Below are positions 19,469-27,707 of a stretch of 43,224 bases of DNA, one piece after another; positions within the stretch are counted from its first letter, which is position 1; the number at the start of each line of letters is the position of its first letter. Source of the DNA: a virus; the UHGV virus genome UHGV-0208947. One strand, 5' to 3'. The position numbers and the translations under genes are program-made. Below the pieces are notes generated by a model that did no database searches, had not been told where the DNA came from, and was given only the letters and a program-made list of their open reading frames with translations.

Positions 19469-19631
19469 AACACCCCAGCCAGATTTACCCGATCCGTTTA
19501 CGTGGGGAGCAAGCCTTAACCTGAATGTTGCGTTGTTGTCAGCGTTAGCACAGTGCAACAGGGATAAGGCTGATATCAGGACTTTCGAGAACAACAGGGC
19601 AGGACAAACAGATGGCACGATTAAACGTTGA
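19353..19631 (+). CDS. Rz1-like outer-membrane lipoprotein spanin
   Basis: MMIVLFVLCLLAQLSGC... has signal peptide and lipobox LSGC; Pro-rich mature part; overlaps the 3' end of Rz in another frame. Confidence 0.6.
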   Translation: MMIVLFVLCLLAQLSGCTTTRTVYVPVPVVPLPANLTAETPQPDLPDPFTWGASLNLNVALLSALAQCNRDKADIRTFENNRAGQTDGTIKR

Positions 19632-19797
19632 AGTTATCCCACCAGACAGCGAGGTGCTGAACGGGATTTTTGCAGAGATTGAGCGCAAATATGCGCGTCA
19701 GCTGCTGACGCCAAAAGTAATTGATGAAATGCAACGCGAAGCGACGCGCCTTGTACGGCGAATGATAACCACAAAGGTTACGTTCGTCCGGGACTGA
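19612..19797 (+). CDS. Hypothetical small protein
   Basis: 61-aa ORF after the lysis cassette; no motif recognised. Confidence 0.3.
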   Translation: MARLNVEVIPPDSEVLNGIFAEIERKYARQLLTPKVIDEMQREATRLVRRMITTKVTFVRD

Positions 19798-19851
19798 CAT
19801 TACAGAAGCCCTTCACTGAGGGGCTTCGATAATGGAGCACTGGGATTATTC

Positions 19852-20472
19852 ATGAACAGACCACACCCACCAGCGCATTTTACGATGCCACCTGACCCGA
19901 AGCCTTACATCAGCATAATGCCCGCCATTGACGTTGGCGAGTGGCTGAATCAGCACATCCTGAGCGATGAGGGTGACCTCTACAACCCTGACCACCAGCA
20001 TTTGCTTGAAGCGGATCTGTGCTTTCTCTGGGCGTCGAACACTTTCGAGAAGAAAGGGCGGTCCGTGCTGGGGCAGGCGGAAGAAGTGGCAATGCGGGCT
20101 GGAGGCTGGCAGAAAGCGCGGATGGAGCAGCAGATGTATGAATGGTTCGGCAGGGTGCCGCAGTTCATCATCACGCTGGCCGCCGATTACTGCTCGCAAT
20201 GTTCCGATCTGGAATTCTGCGCGCTGATAGAGCACGAGCTTTATCACATCTGCCAAGCGACAGATGAATTTGGTGTGCCGAAGTTCACGCAGGAAGGGCA
20301 GCCAAAGCTGAAGCTGCGCGGCCATGACGTGGAAGAGTTTGTGGGCGTGGTTCGCCGTTACGGTGCGAGCCGTGATGTGCAGGAAATGATTGATGCGGCG
20401 AATCAGCCAGCGGAGGTTGCTCATCTCGATATTGCCAGAGCTTGCGGGACGTGCATGCTGCGACTGGCTTAA
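19852..20472 (+). CDS. HExxH-motif protein (possible zinc metallopeptidase-like), function unknown
   Basis: 206-aa ORF with HELYH within ...CALIEHELYHICQATDEFG...; lies between lysis and packaging genes. Confidence 0.45.
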   Translation: MNRPHPPAHFTMPPDPKPYISIMPAIDVGEWLNQHILSDEGDLYNPDHQHLLEADLCFLWASNTFEKKGRSVLGQAEEVAMRAGGWQKARMEQQMYEWFGRVPQFIITLAADYCSQCSDLEFCALIEHELYHICQATDEFGVPKFTQEGQPKLKLRGHDVEEFVGVVRRYGASRDVQEMIDAANQPAEVAHLDIARACGTCMLRLA

Positions 20473-20502
20473 AACTGGACTGAATAAGACGAATGGTGAT
20501 TT

Positions 20503-20976
20503 ATGGCTGCATTAAAACCTGATGTGAAAGCCTTCATCATTCAGTCGCTTGCGTGCTATGACACGCCGACGCAGGTGGTTGAGGCTGTCCAAAAAGAATT
20601 CGGGATCAAGATCACCCGCCAGCAGGCTGAATCTCACGACCCCACGAAGGCCAGCGGTAAGACGCTCGCCAAAAAGTGGATCGAGATGTTCCACGCTACG
20701 CGCGAACGGTTCCTGACCGAAACCAGCGACATTCCGATCGCGAACAAATCCTATCGCCTCCGCGTGCTTGACCGCATGGCAACCAAAACCGAGGGGATGA
20801 AAAACTTCTCCCTGACGGCGCAGCTGATTGAACAGGCCGCGAAAGAGGTTGGCGACGCTTACACCAATAAGCTGAAGGTTGAAAGCACTGGCAAGGATGG
20901 CGGCCCGATCAAGACCGAGACGACCAACCTCACCGCAGATCAGGCCGCAGAGATTTACCGCAAGATGATGGGGTGA
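20503..20976 (+). CDS. Putative terminase small subunit
   Basis: 157-aa ORF with GGTGA upstream, immediately before the terminase large-subunit region; assignment is positional. Confidence 0.45.
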   Translation: MAALKPDVKAFIIQSLACYDTPTQVVEAVQKEFGIKITRQQAESHDPTKASGKTLAKKWIEMFHATRERFLTETSDIPIANKSYRLRVLDRMATKTEGMKNFSLTAQLIEQAAKEVGDAYTNKLKVESTGKDGGPIKTETTNLTADQAAEIYRKMMG

Positions 20977-21001
20977 TAGCCGCATGTTGCGGCTATGGAT
21001 T

Positions 21002-21214
21002 CTAGGCTTGTTTTGGTCGAGTAATACGGCCAAGAGCTTTAATTGCAGCGACTTTGACGTTGTGATTTAGATCCGAAGATAAATCAAGTAAGCGATTTAC
21101 ATGAGCTGGCGTTGCTGAAGCACTCTCGCCGAGAGCATAAATTGCAGACAATTTTACTTCGTTGTTAAGGTCGTTGGTTAATTCCAACAACTTAGCGCTA
21201 ACTGCTGGTGTCAT
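21002..21214 (-). CDS. Small protein with two HEAT-like (PBS-lyase type) repeats, antisense to the packaging operon
   Basis: ATG at 21214-21212 with GGAGG upstream; MTPAVSAKLLELTNDLNNEVKLSAIYALGESASATPAHVNRLLDLSSDLNHNVKVAAIKALGRI shows two D.N..V(K/R)..A..ALG units; AT-rich. Confidence 0.4.
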   Translation of the reverse strand: MTPAVSAKLLELTNDLNNEVKLSAIYALGESASATPAHVNRLLDLSSDLNHNVKVAAIKALGRITRPKQA

Positions 21215-21285
21215 AAAACCTCCTGTAATTGGTACATAAACAATATCAACTTTGTTACGCAAAAACTCAATGCCTGGAATTGTTT

Positions 21286-22908
21286 ATGCCTCTTCCGTTT
21301 GAATTCGATTTCAGAAACCCTGATTACCAGATGGTTTTTGAATGGCGGATGGAGCGCTTACAGCGCATTCGCCAGAACCCTGAAATGCTGCCAGCACTAA
21401 AGCAGTTTTACCGCACCAACCCGGCACAGTTCATCATCGACTGGGGTATGACTACTGACCCGCGTAACATCGATTATGGCCTGCCGGTCACAATCCCTTT
21501 TCTGCTGTTCCCGAAACAGGAAGAGTGGATTCACTGGATCATTGAGCGGCGCGAACGACTGGAGAACGGCATCACCGAAAAGAGCCGCGAAATGGGGCTC
21601 AGTTGGACCGCGATCGGGCTGGCCTGCTCGCTTTGTCTCTTCAACAAAGAAATGGTTATCGGTTTCGGCTCCCGTAAAGAGGAATACGTCGACAGCACCG
21701 GTGACCCGAAGGCGCTGTTCTGGAAGGCGCGAAAGTTCGTGGAAACACTGCCCATCGAGTTTCGTGGTTCGTGGGACGAGAAGAAGCATGCGCCGTATAT
21801 GCGCGTTGAGTTTCCAGATACTGGCGCGGTTATCAAAGGCGAGGCTGGCGACAATATCGGACGTGGTGACCGTACCACGCTCTACCTGGTGGATGAAGCT
21901 GCATTCCTCCAGCGTCCTCTGTTGATTGATGCGGCGCTGTCGCAAACCACCCGTTGCCGTATTGACCTGAGCTCGGTTAATGGCATGGCGAACCCGTTCG
22001 CGCAGAAGCGCCACGGCGGAAAAATACCAGTATTCACATTCCACTGGCGAGATGACCCGCGCAAGGATGAAGAGTGGTATCGCAGGGAGTGCGAGAAAAT
22101 CGACAATCCGGTGGTGGTGGCGCAGGAACTTGACCTGAACTACAGCGCATCTGCGGAAGGCGTCCTGATCCCGTCCGACTGGGTACAGGCTGCCGTCGAC
22201 GCGCATATCAAACTTGGTATTCAGCCAACGGGCAAGCGACTGGGCGCGATGGACGTCGCCGACGAAGGCCGGGACAAAAATGCCTTTTCGACCCGTCACG
22301 GCTTCCTTCTGGAGAACGTGCGTGAATGGTCCGGCGTTGGCAGCGACATTTACCAGTCTGTTGAGAAGGTCTTCGGCTTTTGCGAACAGGACAACCTCGA
22401 AGAGTTTCGCTTCGACGAGGACGGCCTGGGTGCTGGCGTTCGCGGCGATGCGCGCGCCATCAACGAACTGCGTTACGCAGCGCGCCGACCGTCAATACTC
22501 GCCACACCGTTTCGTGGTAGCGGCGCGGTATTTGATCCGGACGATGAAGCGGTGCGCGGGGACAACGGACAGGCCGCACGCCTGAACAAGGACTTCTTCG
22601 CCAACGCCAAGGCCCAGAGCTGGTGGTGGCTACGCAAGCTTTTCCAGAACACCTATCGCGCCGTGGTTGAGGGCATGGCCTACAACCCGGACGAAATCAT
22701 CTCAATCAGCAGCGCCATGGCGAGCAAAGACAAACTCATCATTGAGCTGTCGCAGCCGACCTACTCCATTAATGGCGTGGGGAAAATCGTTGTTGATAAA
22801 CAGCCTGATGGCACCAAGTCGCCGAACCTCGCCGACTCGGTGATGATCAGCTACGCGCCAATGAATTCAGCCCTGAACATCTGGGAGCTGCTAGGGAGAC
22901 AGGCCTGA
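21286..22908 (+). CDS. Terminase large subunit
   Basis: About 540 aa from the ATG at 21286 (MPLPFEF...); Walker-B-like [10 protein letters not shown]; precedes the portal gene with ATGA-type overlap. Confidence 0.75.
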
Positions 22909-24377
22909 TGGCACGAAACAAGCAATCCTCTCAGCGAACGGCACAGGCCACCGCTGACGGCTACGAGAACTTCGTCGCCCGCGTTGGGATGCAGACGCCT
23001 AACCAGCATTCAGCATCGACCTACCGGGCGAACTTCACCAGCCGCAACCGCATGCTGGTGGAATGGTCATATCGCGGTTCGTGGGTTATCGGTGAAGCGG
23101 TCGACGCTATCCCGGACGATATGACCCGAAAGGGCATTCGCATCACTTCGGAGATTGACGCCAAAGACCGTGGCACCCTCGAAGCGCAACTGGATGAGTT
23201 GCAGATCTGGGATGCGCTGAACGACGTGCTGAAATGGTCGCGCCTCTACGGCGGCGCGGTCGGCTTCATCATGATCGAGGGGCAAGCACCAATGACCCCG
23301 CTGCGACTCGAAACCATTGGCGAGGGCAAGTTTAAGGGCATTCTCCCGCTCGACCGCTGGATGATTAACCCGGTGCTGACACGCCGCATTAAAGAGATGG
23401 GGCCGGACCTCGGCAAGCCTGAGTTTTACGACGTGGTGACCACCGCAACGGGCATTCCGGCCTGGCGCATCCATCACAGCCGCCTGATCCGCTTTGATGG
23501 CGTCACGCTGCCATTCCAGCAGAAGATGACCGAAAACGAATGGGGAATGTCGGTTGTAGAGCGTATCTGGGATCGGCTTACTGCGTTCGATAGCGCTACT
23601 GTCGGCGCGGCGCAGCTGGTCTATAAAGCGCATCTGCGTACCTATAGCGTGGAGAAGTTGCGCGAGCTTATCGCGCTTGGAGGCCCGGCGTTCGAAGCGT
23701 TGCTGAAGAACATCGACCTGATCCGCCAGTTCCAGAGCAATGAAGGTATGACGCTCATGGACTCGCGGGATAAGTTCGAAACCCACCAGTACAGCTTTAG
23801 TGGTCTGGATGACATTCTTTCGCAGTTTGCTGAGCAGATCAGCGGTGCCGTTGGTATCCCGCTGGTACGCCTGTTCGGTCAATCCCCGAAAGGCTTCTCT
23901 ACTGGTGATGCAGACCTCGCCAACTATTACGACCGGGTGAGCTCATTGCAGGAGCGCCGCTTACGACTGCCGATGCGCCGGATACTGGACATTATGCACC
24001 GCTCGGAACTCGGAAAGCCGCTGCCGGACGATTTCACGTTTGAGTTTAACCCGCTATGGCAAATGTCAGACGTTGACCGATCAACGGTAGCCGTAAACAC
24101 CACCAACGCGATCAGTACCGCGCTGGGCGACGGATTGATGACGCGTAAGGCGGCGATGACCGACCTGCGCGAAAACTCTGACGTCACCGGCATCGGGGCA
24201 TCCATTACCGACGAGGATATCGAGAATGCCGAAGACGAAGCGCCGCCAGGCATCGGCGAACTTGGCGACAAACCGCCAGAGCCGCCAGGCGGAGATCCGA
24301 TATCGAACGAGCCTACGGCAGATAGCGCGGGCGGTCGGGGATATCGTAAATGGTCGCTACGATGGTTCAAACGATAG
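22908..24377 (+). CDS. Portal protein
   Basis: 489-aa ORF directly after the large terminase and before the MuF-like gene; acidic/Pro-rich C-terminus. Confidence 0.75.
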   Translation: MARNKQSSQRTAQATADGYENFVARVGMQTPNQHSASTYRANFTSRNRMLVEWSYRGSWVIGEAVDAIPDDMTRKGIRITSEIDAKDRGTLEAQLDELQIWDALNDVLKWSRLYGGAVGFIMIEGQAPMTPLRLETIGEGKFKGILPLDRWMINPVLTRRIKEMGPDLGKPEFYDVVTTATGIPAWRIHHSRLIRFDGVTLPFQQKMTENEWGMSVVERIWDRLTAFDSATVGAAQLVYKAHLRTYSVEKLRELIALGGPAFEALLKNIDLIRQFQSNEGMTLMDSRDKFETHQYSFSGLDDILSQFAEQISGAVGIPLVRLFGQSPKGFSTGDADLANYYDRVSSLQERRLRLPMRRILDIMHRSELGKPLPDDFTFEFNPLWQMSDVDRSTVAVNTTNAISTALGDGLMTRKAAMTDLRENSDVTGIGASITDEDIENAEDEAPPGIGELGDKPPEPPGGDPISNEPTADSAGGRGYRKWSLRWFKR

Positions 24378-24999
24378 CGTCACCGAAATAATGGATGCGC
24401 TGGAGCGCTACAGCGAAATCATCACCCCCTGGGCGACTAAGGTTGCTGAGAGCTTCACCGCCGACATTGCGCGCCAGAATGAAAAGCAGTGGCGTCAGCA
24501 CAGTCGGAACATCAGCGCAGAACTACGCAACATGGTCGACCGCGCCCCGGTAGGCCAGGTGATGAAATCCATCGTCGCCGAGCAAATTAAGTACATCAAA
24601 TCTCTGCCTCTTGAGGCCGCCGATCGGGTGTATGACATTCAGAACAAGGCCATCGAGGCTGTAGTAACTGGTGGCCGCGCTGAGCCATTCGCGAAAGAGA
24701 TAGCTGCTTCCGGTGACGTGTCACGCTCACGAGCGAACCTTATCTCCCGGACTGAGCTTGGGCGCGCAACCGGTGCATTGGATCAGGCGCGTGCGCTGTC
24801 AATCGGCTCGAATGGTTATATCTGGCGTACAGCCGAAGATGGCGACGTCCGGCATTCTCATCGAGAGATGGAAGGGAAGTTTGTCGAATGGGGCCGACCT
24901 CCAACGCTTGACGGCATGACCGGTCACGCTGGCGAGCTCCCGAACTGCCGCTGTTACAAAGAAATCGTCTTCCCCAACCCTCATTCTTATCTCGCCTGA
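24226..24999 (+). CDS. Head morphogenesis protein, Mu F-like (minor capsid protein)
   Basis: C-terminal ...GYIWRTAEDGDVRHSHREMEGKFVEW...PNCRCY typical of the Mu F / SPP1 gp7 family; ATG at 24226 with GAGGA upstream overlaps the portal 3' end by about 150 nt, so the true start may be further downstream. Confidence 0.7.
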   Translation: MPKTKRRQASANLATNRQSRQAEIRYRTSLRQIARAVGDIVNGRYDGSNDSVTEIMDALERYSEIITPWATKVAESFTADIARQNEKQWRQHSRNISAELRNMVDRAPVGQVMKSIVAEQIKYIKSLPLEAADRVYDIQNKAIEAVVTGGRAEPFAKEIAASGDVSRSRANLISRTELGRATGALDQARALSIGSNGYIWRTAEDGDVRHSHREMEGKFVEWGRPPTLDGMTGHAGELPNCRCYKEIVFPNPHSYLA

Positions 25000-25013
25000 A
25001 TCGCAGGTAAACC

Positions 25014-26246
25014 ATGAAATATTTTTTCAATACCCGGCTGGGGGAAACCCGTTATCAGCTGGCTGACGGCTCGCTGCTGTGCAAAGACGTGCCGATAGGT
25101 CGAACGGGTAAGCAGCTTTACGGCGCTGCCGATCTGCCAAACCTCAAACCCGACAAGCTCGGCGAGATAGTCGTAACGCGCTCTCCTGATCAGGTATTCC
25201 ATCCGGCCACGCTCGCCTCATTCGAAGGGATGAGCATCACGATCCTGCATCCTGAAGATGAAAACGGGAATGTGCGGCTGGTCAACCCCGAGAACTGGAA
25301 AGAGCTTGCGGTCGGGCATCTTCAGAACGTTCGGCGCGGGACTGGTGATCAGTCTGATTTGATGCTGGCTGACCTTATCGTCAAAGACGAAAGCGCCATT
25401 CAGCTGATCGAAGATGGTCTGCGCGAAGTGTCGTGCGGCTATGACGCTGAGTACGAGCAGACCGAACCCGGAAAAGCCGAGCAGGTCGATATTACCGGAA
25501 ACCATGTGGCTCTTGTCCCTAAAGGCAGAGCCGGAAATCGTTGTGCAATTGGAGACAGAGACACAATGGCAAATCAAAAGAAAAGCTGGTGGACCCGCAT
25601 GCGCACGGCCATCAAAACGGGTGATGCTGACACCATGAACGAACTGCTGGACTCTGCGCCAGCGGCGGTAACGGGCGATGAAGGGGATCTGCCGAGCGGC
25701 GTTAACCTCAACATTAATCTTTCACCGCAACAACCATTGCCGGACAAAAAGCCGGAAATGGGCGGAGAGCCAACCGGCGACGGCGAGGACGATATCAAAA
25801 CCTTGCTCAAAGCCCTGCTGGCTAAGCTGGAAGGTACTGCAACGGGCGATAACGACGATAAGCCTGACGGCAAAGATAACAAAGACCCTACCGGCGACGG
25901 TGAGGACGACGAAGAGGAAACCACGATTACCGGTGACGCTGCTTATCGTGCCGAAGTTATCGTTCCGGGTATCGATCTGAGCCGTAAGGTGAAACCGACC
26001 GCGTTCAAACGTGATGTGCTGTCCGCCGCTGACAAAACACTGGTTCGCCAGGTTGTCGGTGATGCAGATATCCGCAAATTGCCCAAGCAATCGGTCGATA
26101 TGGCGTTTAACGCCGTGTCTGAGATTGCCAAAGGGCGAAACACCCGCAGCACCACGGGCGATGCACAACGTCCAAATATGGGCATGACCAGCATCGCTTC
26201 CCTGAACAAACAAAACGCCGACTTCTGGTCTAACCGCAAAGGATAA
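25014..26246 (+). CDS. Prohead protease/scaffold protein (Mu gpI-like)
   Basis: 410-aa ORF after the MuF-like gene; highly acidic Asp/Gly/Glu-rich linker region (GDGEDD repeats) typical of scaffolding proteins. Confidence 0.55.
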   Translation: MKYFFNTRLGETRYQLADGSLLCKDVPIGRTGKQLYGAADLPNLKPDKLGEIVVTRSPDQVFHPATLASFEGMSITILHPEDENGNVRLVNPENWKELAVGHLQNVRRGTGDQSDLMLADLIVKDESAIQLIEDGLREVSCGYDAEYEQTEPGKAEQVDITGNHVALVPKGRAGNRCAIGDRDTMANQKKSWWTRMRTAIKTGDADTMNELLDSAPAAVTGDEGDLPSGVNLNINLSPQQPLPDKKPEMGGEPTGDGEDDIKTLLKALLAKLEGTATGDNDDKPDGKDNKDPTGDGEDDEEETTITGDAAYRAEVIVPGIDLSRKVKPTAFKRDVLSAADKTLVRQVVGDADIRKLPKQSVDMAFNAVSEIAKGRNTRSTTGDAQRPNMGMTSIASLNKQNADFWSNRKG

Positions 26247-26250
26247 TCCA

Positions 26251-26754
26251 ATGACTGCATATTTGTACCGGATGCCTGTTGGCATTGCCGGGGCTATCTC
26301 TCGCCCGCAGGATTTAACCGTCGAGCCGGTGATCCTTAAATCCGCTAACGCCTTCGCTGCCTATGGTCTGGCTGGCAAATACGACGCTGACGGCTTTTTT
26401 GTGCCGCTGGCGGACGGTGACACCTCCGACAAAGTGAAGGGGATTTACGTTCGTCCGTATCCGACCACATCACAGCCGGACATGGTTCGCCAGGTGGGGA
26501 CGGATAAGAACTTCCCGGGCGATGCAATGAAGCGCGGTTACATGACCGTTAACCTTGGTTCTGACTTTGATGCCAGCACCATCAAAAAAGGTGACCCGGT
26601 ATACGTTGTTGTCTCCACTGATGAATCTATTAAAGTGCCGCTGGGTGGTTTCTGCTCTTCAAGCGTGGAAGGGAAAACTGTCGTACTCGCGAATGCTGAA
26701 TTTACTGGTGCCGGTGACGCTAACGGTAATGCAGAAATCTCCTGGAAGATTTAA
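26251..26754 (+). CDS. Capsid-associated structural protein
   Basis: 167-aa ORF between the scaffold and major capsid genes. Confidence 0.45.
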   Translation: MTAYLYRMPVGIAGAISRPQDLTVEPVILKSANAFAAYGLAGKYDADGFFVPLADGDTSDKVKGIYVRPYPTTSQPDMVRQVGTDKNFPGDAMKRGYMTVNLGSDFDASTIKKGDPVYVVVSTDESIKVPLGGFCSSSVEGKTVVLANAEFTGAGDANGNAEISWKI

Positions 26755-26765
26755 GGAACAGACAA

Positions 26766-27707
26766 ATGATTACTTTTGATCAGGCAACCGTAGATAGCTC
26801 CGGTGCCTTTCTCATCGGGGAGCTGGAGCGACTCGACCAGACGCTGAACCTGCCTCTGGTGGGGTACACCTGGACCCGAGATATTCAACTGCGTGAAGAC
26901 GTGTCTATCGCAGATGACATTTCCAGCTGGACGAATACCAGCTTCGCCGCTGCGGGTACTGGTGCAAATCCGAATGGTAAAAACTGGGTAGGCAAAGACT
27001 CCACCGCTATTGCTGGCGTGAACGTGGATATCAGCAAAGACGGCAATCCACTGAACCTCTGGGGTATGGAACTGGGCTGGACCGTTGTAGAGCTGGCAGC
27101 TGCTCAGCAGGTAGGCCGCCCGATTGATACCCAGAAGTACGACGGGATGCAGCTCAAATGGCAGATGGACAACGACGAGCAGGTTTACATCGGTGATGAC
27201 GCACTCGGCCTGAAAGGTCTGGCAAACCTCGTCGGTGTGACGCTGAACAACGCGCCGAAGACCTGGGCGAACTCAACCAACGACGAGATCCTCGATAGCG
27301 TGAACAGCATTCTGTCTAATGCCTGGGCAGCATCCGGTTATTCCATCGTGCCTTCTGATCTGCGCATTCCGCCAGAGCAGTATTCACTGCTGGCGAGCCG
27401 TAAGGTTTCCGAAGCGGGTAACCAGTCACTGCTGACCTATCTGGCTGTGAACACTATCGCTTTCCACCAGAACGGCGTTCCGCTTGAAATCAAAGCGGTC
27501 AAATGGCTGAAAGGGCGTGGGGTTGGCGGTAAAGACCGTATGATCGCCTACACCAACGACAAGAAATACGTGCGCTATCCGCTGGTGCCGTTGCAGAGCG
27601 TTCCTGTCCAGTATCGCGGTCTGTATCAGATTGCGACCTACTACGGCAAGCTCGGTGCGGTTGAGCCAGTGTACAAAGAAACCCTGTCCTACGTGGACGG
27701 TATCTGA
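26766..27707 (+). CDS. Major capsid protein (Mu gpT-like)
   Basis: 313-aa ORF with strong RBS context in the expected position after protease/scaffold. Confidence 0.65.
   Translation: MITFDQATVDSSGAFLIGELERLDQTLNLPLVGYTWTRDIQLREDVSIADDISSWTNTSFAAAGTGANPNGKNWVGKDSTAIAGVNVDISKDGNPLNLWGMELGWTVVELAAAQQVGRPIDTQKYDGMQLKWQMDNDEQVYIGDDALGLKGLANLVGVTLNNAPKTWANSTNDEILDSVNSILSNAWAASGYSIVPSDLRIPPEQYSLLASRKVSEAGNQSLLTYLAVNTIAFHQNGVPLEIKAVKWLKGRGVGGKDRMIAYTNDKKYVRYPLVPLQSVPVQYRGLYQIATYYGKLGAVEPVYKETLSYVDGI

What the first reader, a model, noticed from the sequence alone, without database searches (positions are those of the whole stretch)
20980..21262. Antisense HEAT-repeat mini-gene between the small and large terminase genes
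On the strand opposite the whole late operon, an AT-rich 70-aa ORF with a strong GGAGG RBS encodes two PBS-lyase-type HEAT-like repeats (NNEVKLSAIYALGE / NHNVKVAAIKALGR). Independent, oppositely oriented small genes inside packaging operons are typical of morons; a minimal HEAT scaffold could act as a protein-binding inhibitor.
Basis: partly seen in the sequence, partly recalled or inferred. Interest (0 to 1): 0.4.

Follow-up and report, generated by a model that had tools for sequence, protein, structure and literature searches.

The report
Antisense mini-HEAT moron between terminase genes
A self-contained 308-bp cassette encoding a real 70-residue, two-repeat HEAT protein sits backwards between a prophage's two DNA-packaging genes; it is an ordinary "moron" in kind, but its cargo belongs to a widespread, unstudied family of tiny proteins shared by enterobacterial prophages and IncI conjugative plasmids.

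Summary
Window 21002-21214 (-) is a 70-aa ORF with a GGAGG Shine-Dalgarno. It is AT-rich (42.7% GC against 55-57% in its neighbours). It passes Pfam HEAT_2 and HEAT and models confidently as four helices, most like designed alphaRep binders.

Comparative data make it a textbook moron. A phage with 97-99% identical flanks lacks exactly 20977-21285, leaving the terS stop 2 nt from the terL ATG. Only 5 of 352 E. coli genomes with this TerL family carry the cassette.

Thirteen diverged cassettes all keep a positioned TTGnnn-N17-nAnAnT promoter-like motif and a Shine-Dalgarno sequence, and 11 keep a GC hairpin abutting the terS stop. Substitution patterns show purifying selection on the protein.

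The same junction holds other antisense mini-genes (DUF1508, DUF2158), so it is an insertion hotspot rather than a packaging-specific site.

The protein family has at least 149 clusters, nearly all 66-72 aa. It also occurs divergently upstream of other terS genes and on about 1,200 IncI plasmids, where it is allelic with hha.

No function is known. The most likely role is a small cytoplasmic protein binder expressed from the repressed prophage. This is a new member of a known kind and of modest interest.

The parts
20977..21285 (-). The whole inserted cassette, about 308 bp and 41.1% GC. It is absent from Citrobacter phage Omnitron, where the terS TGA is followed by 'TC' and then the terL ATG.
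   Evidence: The junction is 2 nt in seven other relatives.
21265..21270 (-). Predicted -35 hexamer, TTGAGT as read on the minus strand.
   Evidence: A position-conserved TTGnnn-N17-nAnAnT motif is present in 13 of 13 distinct cassettes. Shuffled controls averaged 0.11 of 13 and reached at most 3 in 2000 shuffles. This is a prediction only. The 9-of-12 consensus scan reported no site; this site scores 8 of 12.
21242..21247 (-). Predicted -10 hexamer, GATATT as read on the minus strand. It ends 27 nt upstream of the ATG, so the transcription start would be near 21235.
   Evidence: No transcript data.
21219..21223 (-). Shine-Dalgarno GGAGG, 4 nt upstream of the ATG.
   Evidence: GGAG/GGAGG or a weaker purine-rich equivalent (GGAA in L075) precedes the start in all 13 cassettes.
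21002..21214 (-). Mini-HEAT gene: 70 aa plus stop, two HEAT-like repeats, four helices (residues 3-12, 18-29, 36-45, 51-65).
   Evidence: Pfam HEAT_2 and HEAT above cut-off. AlphaFold2 pLDDT 92. Purifying selection. Closest solved structures are alphaRep proteins.
20976..20996 (-). Nine-bp GC-rich stem with a 3-nt loop (AUAGCCGCA-ACA-UGCGGCUAU on the minus strand). It lies 5 nt after the HEAT stop, and its first base pair uses the last base of the terS stop codon. It is the likely 3' end or terminator of the antisense transcript. There is no clear U-tract.
   Evidence: dG -14.1 kcal/mol, z -3.8. An equivalent hairpin with a different stem sequence is present in 11 of 13 cassettes, dG -12.8 to -19.7 and z -3 to -5.8.
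20503..20976 (+). Left flank: the DUF2280 gene in the terS position. Its last ~30 codons (...TNLTADQAAEIYRKMMG*) form a tail shared by otherwise unrelated terS families that pair with this TerL.
21286..22908 (+). Right flank: the large terminase gene, of the SEN34/Brunovirus-like family. In cassette carriers its ATG is uncoupled from terS and preceded by only a weak purine-rich stretch.
   Evidence: phrog_2. RefSeq names it 'TerL protein'. Junction sequences.

Best explanation
The feature is a moron: an autonomous, horizontally exchanged transcription unit inserted into the 2-nt terS|terL junction of a lambdoid, SEN34-like packaging module.

Anatomy, shown from sequence and comparison. Read on the minus strand, the cassette has:
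- a weak sigma-70-like promoter, TTGAGT-17-GATATT;
- a GGAGG Shine-Dalgarno sequence;
- a 70-codon gene;
- a GC hairpin that abuts the terS stop codon.

The gene encodes a soluble four-helix protein made of two alphaRep-type HEAT-like repeats, and it is under purifying selection.

Mechanism, inferred.
- The gene faces against the Q-dependent late operon. It would therefore be transcribed from its own promoter while the prophage is repressed. It would be damped by head-on late transcription after induction.
- The protein most likely acts as a small cytoplasmic binder of another protein, through the helix-B face that alphaRep binders use. E30 and R63, invariant across 21 alleles, lie on that face.
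- The partner is unknown.
- The same protein family is carried next to unrelated terminases and on IncI conjugative plasmids. Other mini-genes occupy the same junction. The benefit is therefore probably a general one for the mobile element or its host, such as exclusion, defence, counter-defence or host modulation. It is probably not a role in this phage's own DNA packaging.
For: Insertion.
- Omnitron has 97.5-98.8% identical flanks but lacks 20977-21285.
- SEN34, vB_EcoM-606R2 and five E. coli prophages have the terS stop 2 nt before the terL ATG.
- The TerL family is in 352 of 5426 E. coli genomes; this cassette is in 5.
- GC is 41% against 55-57% in the flanks.

Autonomous unit.
- All 13 diverged cassettes keep TTGnnn-N17-nAnAnT ending 24-30 nt before the start codon. 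Shuffles average 0.11 of 13.
- A Shine-Dalgarno sequence is conserved.
- A hairpin is present in 11 of 13, with different stem sequences.

Real protein.
- Pfam hits are above cut-off.
- Between the window and L005/L006 there are 6-7 synonymous changes against 1 non-synonymous. dN/dS is 0.04-0.36 for close pairs. For distant pairs dS is saturated while dN is 0.32-0.42.
- Length stays at 67-72 aa in 21 alleles.
- AlphaFold2 pLDDT is 92.

Binder-like fold.
- Best PDB matches are alphaRep proteins: profile E 2e-20, TM 0.78-0.83, rmsd 1.3-2.3 A.
- AlphaReps with one internal repeat bind at nanomolar affinity and are stable (PMC3754942).

Hotspot and mobility.
- A motif-independent scan of the junction found 17 viral contigs with HEAT, 4 with DUF2158 and 2 with DUF1508. 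All 23 are antisense. At least 120 contigs have no insert.
- Between the window and L005 the cassette is 93-98% identical, while the terS body is about 35% identical and parts of terL 67-82%.
- The family has 149 clusters across Enterobacterales and is in 1215 PLSDB plasmids.

The definition of a moron is taken from PMC3594210.
Against: - No transcript, protein or phenotype data exist. The promoter scores only 8 of 12 and was missed by the consensus scan.
- The hairpin lacks a clear U-tract, so termination is not assured.
- No binding partner is known.
- The conservation of E30 and R63 is weak evidence. Position 30 is only one of six binder-face positions, and the other face positions vary. 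Y26 and K59 lost their apparent invariance once alleles were retrieved by synteny rather than by motif.
- The strict antisense orientation of all cargo at this junction could instead point to a cis or RNA-level role.
- No isolated phage in INPHARED carries the gene, so there is no experimental system in hand.
Confidence: 0.72

Rival explanations
1. Cis or RNA-level regulator. What matters is antisense transcription, or the spacer itself, between terS and terL. It would uncouple terL translation from terS, or create a double-stranded RNA processing site that sets the TerS:TerL ratio or silences leaky terminase expression in lysogens. The encoded protein would be secondary.
For: - All 23 coding cassettes found at this junction are antisense, whatever they encode.
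- Insertion removes the 2-nt terS/terL coupling and leaves terL with a weak ribosome-binding site.
- The hairpin overlaps the terS stop codon.
- An apparently non-coding insert of about 220 nt also occupies the junction in 8-9 contigs.
Against: - There is strong purifying selection on the amino-acid sequence.
- The same protein is kept in quite different contexts, upstream of other terS genes and on IncI plasmids, where no terS/terL junction exists.
- The predicted transcription start is downstream of the terL start region, so the RNA would not pair with the terL ribosome-binding site.
- More than 95% of phages with this TerL do without any insert.
Confidence: 0.08
2. Packaging modulator. The mini-HEAT protein binds this phage's own terminase, for example the conserved TerS C-terminal tail or TerL. 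It would hold packaging in check, or block the terminase of superinfecting relatives or satellites.
For: - In prophages the gene always lies next to terminase genes. It sits between terS and terL here, and 27-33 nt upstream of terS in a second group.
- All terS types that flank the junction share the tail ...QAAExYRKMMG. HEAT and alphaRep scaffolds can bind peptides or helices.
Against: - Unrelated mini-genes (DUF1508, DUF2158) use the same junction, so position is explained by a hotspot.
- The second-group terS proteins have different C-termini.
- The most abundant family members are on IncI plasmids, which have no terminase.
- HEAT allele divergence does not track TerL divergence: L035 is 62% against 96%, and L038 is 50% against 91%.
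Confidence: 0.08
3. Host-directed modulator analogous to Hha. The mini-HEAT protein would bind a conserved enterobacterial regulator, such as a nucleoid-associated protein, to adjust expression of horizontally acquired DNA.
For: - On IncI plasmids the HEAT cassette and hha (69 aa) are alternative occupants of the same slot beside excA. Their flanks are 90-98% identical.
- Both are all-helical proteins of about 70 aa.
- The family is confined to Enterobacterales.
Against: - There is no sequence relationship to Hha (hhalign probability 0.7%). Hha was not among the 50 best structural matches shown.
- The trbA-traY region is a generally variable cargo region (PMC8004404), so sharing a slot may mean nothing.
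Confidence: 0.05
4. Spurious or decaying ORF: a chance open frame, or a fragment of a longer HEAT-repeat gene.
For: It is short, AT-rich and antisense inside an operon. RefSeq start-codon calls disagree, giving 86 aa in one record and 70 aa in others.
Against: - Pfam hits are above cut-off.
- It is intact at 67-72 aa in 21 alleles and 149 clusters.
- dN/dS is well below 1.
- The Shine-Dalgarno sequence and start are conserved.
- The fold is predicted with confidence.
Confidence: 0.01

Closest known systems
Morons of lambdoid phages, as defined by Juhala et al. 2000 and reviewed in PMC3594210. Examples are HK97 gene 15 inside the tail operon and lambda bor.
   Same: It is extra DNA between genes that are adjacent in relatives. 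Its GC content differs from its neighbours. It has its own promoter and terminator-like elements, and it sits inside a late operon that is silent in the lysogen.
   Different: The cargo is a soluble two-repeat HEAT protein, not a membrane or surface protein. The insertion site, the terS|terL junction, is unusual. Expression from the prophage has not been shown.
AlphaRep designed binders and the natural thermostable HEAT-like (PBS-lyase-type) repeats they derive from (PMC3754942).
   Same: The repeats have the same register, xxV(R/K)xxAAxALGxI, at a period of 31-33 residues. The best sequence and structure matches in the PDB are alphaReps: E 2e-20, TM about 0.8, rmsd 1.3-2.3 A.
   Different: The protein is natural and has only two repeats, with no recognisable N- or C-cap modules. 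No partner is known. The HEAT_PBS Pfam model itself is below threshold.
PBS-lyase HEAT-like repeat proteins: CpcE/CpcF, NblB and E. coli YibA ('putative lyase' PRK09687).
   Same: There is weak repeat-level similarity.
   Different: Scores are 13-20 bits against curated cut-offs of 220-300 bits. Those proteins carry at least five repeats and act on phycobiliproteins. There is no basis for a lyase role here.
Hha/YmoA small modulators on IncI plasmids.
   Same: Similar size, about 69 aa. On IncI plasmids the two are alternative occupants of the same slot beside excA.
   Different: They are not homologous. They lie on opposite strands. No functional data exist for the HEAT protein.
Small satellite-encoded proteins that bind phage TerS (SaPI Ppi, PICI Rpp). 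This comparison is recalled from memory and was not tested here.
   Same: They are small proteins that would act on the packaging machinery. This is only a possible analogue for the packaging-modulator rival.
   Different: There is no sequence or structural link. Those proteins are encoded by satellites, not by the phage. The evidence here argues against a packaging-specific role.

Membership tests
Phage moron (Juhala/Hendrix definition, PMC3594210) | Present as an obvious addition between genes that are adjacent in closely related phages. | tested here: met
   Omnitron has 97-99% identical flanks but lacks 20977-21285. Seven other relatives have a 2-nt junction.
Phage moron (Juhala/Hendrix definition, PMC3594210) | Nucleotide composition differs from the surrounding genes. 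| tested here: met
   41.1% GC against 55.3% for terS and 56.6% for terL (profile).
Phage moron (Juhala/Hendrix definition, PMC3594210) | Own promoter and terminator. | tested here: inconclusive
   A positioned -35/-10-like motif is present in 13 of 13 cassettes, well above shuffled controls, and a hairpin in 11 of 13. However, the promoter scores 8 of 12 and was missed by the consensus scan, the hairpin has no clear U-tract, and there is no transcript mapping.
Phage moron (Juhala/Hendrix definition, PMC3594210) | Expressed from the repressed prophage. | not testable with these tools
   This needs strand-specific RNA-seq or a reporter in a lysogen.
Phage moron (Juhala/Hendrix definition, PMC3594210) | Spread among genomes by horizontal transfer. 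| tested here: met
   The cassette is 93-98% identical between backgrounds whose terS bodies are about 35% identical. It is found with three terS families. Relatives occur on IncI plasmids with a phage terS relic.
HEAT repeat proteins (Pfam HEAT_2 PF13646 / HEAT PF02985) | Score above the family's gathering threshold. | tested here: met
   HEAT_2 35.1 against 27.7 bits. HEAT 31.0 against 23.5 bits.
HEAT repeat proteins (Pfam HEAT_2 PF13646 / HEAT PF02985) | Tandem helix-turn-helix repeats forming an alpha-solenoid. | tested here: met
   The AlphaFold2 model has pLDDT 92 and four helices in two A/B pairs. It superposes on alphaRep repeats at 1.3-2.3 A.
PBS-lyase HEAT-like repeat (Pfam HEAT_PBS PF03130; CpcE/F, NblB, YibA) | Score above the HEAT_PBS threshold, or above the NCBIfam equivalog cut-offs. 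| tested here: not met
   HEAT_PBS 15.6 against 20.9 bits. For homologues, PRK09687, NblB and CpcF score 13-20 bits against cut-offs of 220-300. The repeat subtype resembles this family, but membership fails.
Known anti-phage defence or anti-defence proteins | Match to a curated defence-system model. | tested here: not met
   PADLOC gives only a weak, generic repeat hit to HEAT-ARM_XIII, a 1972-position model (E 9e-5). A full-text literature search found no report of a HEAT-repeat anti-defence protein.
Hha/YmoA family | Sequence or profile homology to Hha. | tested here: not met
   hhalign probability is 0.7%.

The most novel reading that the evidence does not exclude
The mini-HEAT proteins could be a previously unrecognised class of minimal two-repeat solenoid binders. 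In this reading, mobile elements of Enterobacterales (temperate phages and IncI plasmids) pass the cassette among themselves. The protein would neutralise one conserved cellular or rival-element protein, such as a defence sensor, a competitor's packaging or transfer component, or a nucleoid silencer. E30 and R63 would be the core of the binding face. Head-on late transcription would switch the gene off when the prophage itself goes lytic.
Probability: 0.1. Interest if true: 0.65.

Novelty: new member of a known kind. Interest (0 to 1): 0.33.

Why it matters
For this window, the result is a clean and well-documented moron. It has exact insertion boundaries, a conserved promoter-like motif, Shine-Dalgarno sequence and hairpin, and a hotspot with interchangeable antisense cargo at the terS|terL junction. 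That is useful for annotation: the correct product is 70 aa, and the insert is not part of the packaging machinery.

More broadly, the cargo belongs to a family of about 68-aa proteins. It is present in many Enterobacterales prophages and in about 1.7% of PLSDB plasmids. I found no publication on it and no name beyond 'HEAT repeat domain-containing protein'.

Small, abundant proteins that move between mobile elements have repeatedly turned out to be exclusion, defence or counter-defence factors, so the family is a reasonable candidate for a screen. Nothing here shows that it is one.

Tried and rejected
- The consensus promoter/terminator scan of 20400-21800 reported no promoter and no terminator for the cassette. 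I then used phylogenetic footprinting.
- The exhaustive profile search of 1.84 billion representatives returned 15,259 hits. Its top 150 are long multi-repeat HEAT proteins, apart from the 68-aa family member P0006, so it says nothing new about the mini-family.
- BFVD viral structures gave no characterised match. INPHARED phages gave no tblastn hit. PADLOC and NCBIfam gave only weak generic repeat hits. Rfam found nothing credible in or around the cassette.
- Five of the nine literature searches (HEAT repeat with prophage, terminase and moron; with anti-defence; with IncI1 and excA; moron with terminase subunits and antisense; RefSeq protein accessions) found no study of this gene or family. 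The other four were for background on DUF2280, alphaRep, DUF1508 and the moron definition.
- I first took Y26, E30, K59 and R63 to be an invariant binding face. The loci had been retrieved with patterns containing exactly those residues. Synteny-based retrieval then showed that Y26 and K59 vary, so only E30 and R63 are kept, with low weight.
- I considered that the protein binds the conserved TerS tail. The second-group terS proteins lack that tail, and the plasmid copies have no terS.
- Homology with Hha was rejected.
- I looked for a clear promoter in the second-group and IncI cassettes. No consistent -10 was found.

Full report
**1. What is in the sequence**

The minus strand of 21002-21214 carries an ATG-initiated ORF of 70 codons, MTPAVSAKLLELTNDLNNEVKLSAIYALGESASATPAHVNRLLDLSSDLNHNVKVAAIKALGRITRPKQA. 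A GGAGG at 21223-21219 lies 4 nt before the ATG.

The ORF sits between a DUF2280 gene in the terS position (20503-20976, +; Pfam E 9e-50) and the large terminase gene (21286-22908, +; phrog_2). The portal gene follows. Apart from shadow frames that overlap longer plus-strand genes, every ORF of at least 150 aa from about 10.4 kb to the window end is on the plus strand.

GC content is 42.7% for the ORF and 41.1% for the 20977-21285 interval. It is 55.3% for terS, 56.6% for terL and 51.6% for the window.

The protein passes Pfam HEAT_2 (35.1 bits, cut-off 27.7) and HEAT (31.0, cut-off 23.5). It does not pass HEAT_PBS (15.6 against 20.9). The only corrections concern the start (the ATG, not the TTG at 21262) and the 'PBS-lyase' label.

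**2. It is an insertion**

Citrobacter phage Omnitron matches the window at 97.5% up to 20977 and at 98.8% from 21286 onward. In between it has a single base, so its sequence reads ...GGGGTGA-TC-ATGCCTCTC....

In Salmonella phage SEN34, in vB_EcoM-606R2 and in five sampled E. coli prophages with this TerL, the terS stop is 2 nt from the terL ATG.

The TerL family occurs in 352 of 5426 complete E. coli genomes. The cassette occurs in 5 of them, at 96-100% identity.

**3. The cassette travels with the terL 5' end and a short terS tail**

Homologous mini-genes of 50-100% amino-acid identity lie antisense at the same junction. They occur in Yersinia, Salmonella, Proteus and many IMG/VR contigs.

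The upstream terS belongs to at least three families: DUF2280 (157 aa), a 190-aa type and Terminase_2 (336-340 aa). All of them, and SEN34's own terS (which has no insert), end in the same tail...TNLTxxQAAExYRKMMG*. The module boundary therefore lies inside terS.

Between the window and E. coli Z1322HEC0009 (L005), the cassette and the first ~170 nt of terL are 92-98% identical. The terS body is about 35% identical and parts of terL are 67-82% identical. Cassette dS (0.13) is far below terL dS (0.56). This pattern indicates recent exchange of the cassette by recombination in its short conserved flanks.

**4. The gene is real and under selection**

- The window differs from L005 and L006 by 6-7 synonymous changes and 1 non-synonymous change, giving dN/dS of 0.04-0.05.
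- The window against L010 gives dN/dS of 0.36.
- For distant alleles dS is saturated and dN is 0.32-0.42.
- Twenty-one distinct alleles are all 67-72 aa.

**5. It has the anatomy of an autonomous transcription unit**

Thirteen distinct junction cassettes have otherwise diverged upstream sequence. Every one keeps TTGnnn-N17-nAnAnT, mostly TTGAnn-17-(C/G)ATATT. The motif begins 16-29 nt from the terL start codon and ends 24-30 nt before the HEAT start. Shuffled controls give 0.11 of 13 on average and never more than 3 in 2000 shuffles.

In the window the elements are:
- -35 at 21270-21265;
- -10 at 21247-21242;
- Shine-Dalgarno sequence at 21223-21219.

Eleven of the 13 cassettes have a GC stem-loop abutting the terS stop codon (dG -12.8 to -19.7 kcal/mol, z -3 to -5.8). 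The stems differ in sequence, for example TAGCCGCA/TGCGGCTA, AAGCCGCC/GGCGGCTT and ATGCCGCTC/GAGCGGCAT. The window's stem is at 20976-20996, with dG -14.1 and z -3.8.

These are predictions. The 9-of-12 consensus scan found no promoter, and the hairpin has no clear U-tract.

Together with sections 2-3 and the GC difference, this meets the published description of a moron. That description is an obvious addition with different GC content and its own promoter and terminator, which mediate expression from a repressed prophage (PMC3594210). Expression itself is untested.

**6. The junction is a hotspot with interchangeable antisense cargo**

I scanned IMG/VR with a pattern anchored only in the terS tail and the terL 5' end, which is independent of the HEAT motifs.

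| Gap size scanned (nt) | Content found | Contigs |
|---|---|---|
| 259-351 | HEAT mini-genes | 17 |
| 259-351 | DUF2158 (YodC-like) genes, 58-66 aa | 4 |
| 259-351 | DUF1508 (YegP-like) genes, 61-79 aa | 2 |
| 259-351 | apparently non-coding insert of about 220 nt | 9 |

The 17 HEAT contigs include new alleles: L064, L070/L077, L073 (with a GTG start) and L075. Every coding cassette is antisense (Pfam confirmation). The position next to the terminase genes is therefore explained by a hotspot. It is not evidence that the HEAT protein has a role in packaging.

**7. The protein**

AlphaFold2 gives pLDDT 92 and pTM 0.80. The model has four helices at residues 3-12, 18-29, 36-45 and 51-65.

The best PDB matches are alphaRep proteins. 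These are artificial binders built from consensus thermostable HEAT-like repeats. The profile E-value is 2.3e-20. Foldseek gives TM 0.78-0.83 and rmsd 1.3-2.3 A over 62-66 residues. The repeat register is identical, LIKALKDEDxxVRxxAAxALGxIG.

In alphaReps, positions 18, 19, 22, 23, 26 and 30 of each repeat form the binding face. Constructs with one internal repeat reach nanomolar affinity and are thermostable (PMC3754942).

In the mini-HEAT family the residues invariant across 21 alleles are A24, A27, G29, E30, L42, G62 and R63. E30 and R63 are at face position 30 of the two repeats. This is weak support for a conserved partner.

Isoelectric points range from 6.1 to 10.2, which argues against a nucleic-acid mimic or a general DNA binder.

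No match was found to defence models, to NCBIfam equivalogs or to characterised viral structures.

**8. The wider family**

A profile of 19 alleles finds 149 clusters at E of 1e-6 or better in the 5.8-billion-protein set. Nearly all are 66-72 aa. Those with a taxonomic label are all Enterobacterales, and their only name is 'HEAT repeat domain-containing protein'.

A second prophage group, at 40-57% identity, lies divergently 27-33 nt upstream of Terminase_2-type terS genes (L040, L041, L044). In other loci it lies next to a decayed copy of that terS 5' end (L043, L046, L047, L052).

The most populous clusters are on IncI1/IncI-gamma/K conjugative plasmids, convergent with excA. tblastn finds the gene in 1215 of 72,556 PLSDB plasmids, of which 1201 are conjugative.

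In pESBL-EA11 the same slot holds hha on the other strand, with flanks 90-98% identical. The two proteins are not homologous.

The plasmid cassette still carries a relic of the phage terS start. Its antisense strand reads MALTYKQESTIASDST*, against MALTDKQEMFCREYL in the phage. The plasmid copy therefore came from a phage.

**9. Interpretation**

Shown:
- a precise, rare and recombinationally mobile insertion;
- a conserved promoter-like motif, Shine-Dalgarno sequence, ORF and hairpin;
- a selected protein of about 70 aa with an alphaRep-like fold;
- a hotspot with alternative antisense cargo;
- a family shared by phages and plasmids.

Inferred:
- transcription from its own promoter in the lysogen, with interference from the late transcript after induction. 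Q antiterminator and lysis genes lie upstream in E. coli AR_0118, whose packaging and head region (window 19622-27285) is 97% identical to the window;
- action as a small protein binder;
- a benefit that is not specific to this phage's packaging.

Unknown: the partner and the phenotype.

The rivals are a cis or RNA-level role, a terminase modulator, an Hha-like host modulator and a spurious ORF. Each is weighed in its own section of this report. The first three remain possible at low probability, and the last is effectively excluded.

**10. Verdict**

The 'inhibitor' idea is plausible but untested.

In kind, this is a new member of a known class. I found no publication on the gene or its family. 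Interest is modest. It is raised slightly by the breadth of the uncharacterised family and by the neat hotspot at the terS|terL junction.

Noticed in passing
window 20503-20976 (tail at about 20890-20973); also L005, L007, L009, L010, L002, L003, L014, L015, L037: Otherwise unrelated terS proteins all end in the same ~30-residue tail, ...TG.DGGP.KTE.TNLTxxQAAExYRKMMG*. They include DUF2280 (157 aa), a 190-aa type, Terminase_2 (336-340 aa) and SEN34's 209-aa terS, and all pair with this TerL. The tail is presumably the TerL-docking segment. It supports reading DUF2280 as a small terminase, and it places the mosaic boundary inside terS.
   Followed up: partly
L055 1350-1744; L076 1911-2337; L063 584-952; L082-L084: The same terS|terL junction holds other antisense mini-gene cassettes in other viral contigs. 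These encode DUF1508 (YegP-like, 61-79 aa) and DUF2158 (YodC-like, 58-66 aa) proteins. Each has a GC hairpin next to the terS stop.
   Followed up: partly
L068 1173-1394 (also L069, L071, L072, L074, L078, L079, L081; a related insert in L080): An insert of about 220 nt lies at the same junction and has no ORF longer than 40 aa. It has no Rfam match. It folds only modestly better than shuffled sequence (z -2.3). Its nature is unknown.
   Followed up: partly
L205-L209, L213, L214 (IncI plasmids); L215 (pESBL-EA11, NC_018659 79500-82600): A 68-69-aa mini-HEAT gene, 41-42% identical to the window's protein, lies convergent with excA on 1215 PLSDB plasmids, almost all conjugative; the two inspected are typed IncI-gamma/K1. 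In pESBL-EA11 the same slot holds hha instead, between conserved flanks.
   Followed up: partly
L205 3300-3500; L043, L046, L047, L052 upstream of the HEAT start: The second-group and IncI mini-HEAT cassettes carry a decayed 5' end of a Terminase_2-type terS just upstream. On the antisense strand it reads MALTYKQESTIASDST* in the plasmid. This shows phage-to-plasmid transfer. It also suggests that the retained ~80 nt contains the gene's control region, but no clear -10 was found.
   Followed up: partly
window 21002-21262; L004 6026-6286 against L005/L006 6026-6238: RefSeq annotates the same gene as 86 aa (TTG start) in E. coli AR_0118 and as 70 aa (ATG start) in other genomes. The conserved Shine-Dalgarno sequence and -10 favour 70 aa.
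   Followed up: yes
window 21286-22908: The 540-aa large terminase has no Pfam-A hit at E of 1 or better. It is recognised only by PHROG 2 and by NCBI's 'TerL protein' name. The adjacent portal gene is labelled 'anti-CBASS protein Acb1 family protein' in some RefSeq genomes (H26-H30) and 'DUF1073' in others.
   Followed up: no
window 19852-20472: The gene upstream of terS matches Pfam PhageMetallopep (E 6e-43), but its PHROG family (phrog_513) is labelled 'transposase'. The two annotations conflict.
   Followed up: no
window 20512-21033 (-), 19846-20424 (-), 21397-22299 (-): Long antisense ORFs of 173-300 aa overlap terS, the metallopeptidase gene and terL. They are most likely shadow frames of GC-rich coding DNA. 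The 173-aa frame runs across the HEAT stop codon and the hairpin.
   Followed up: no
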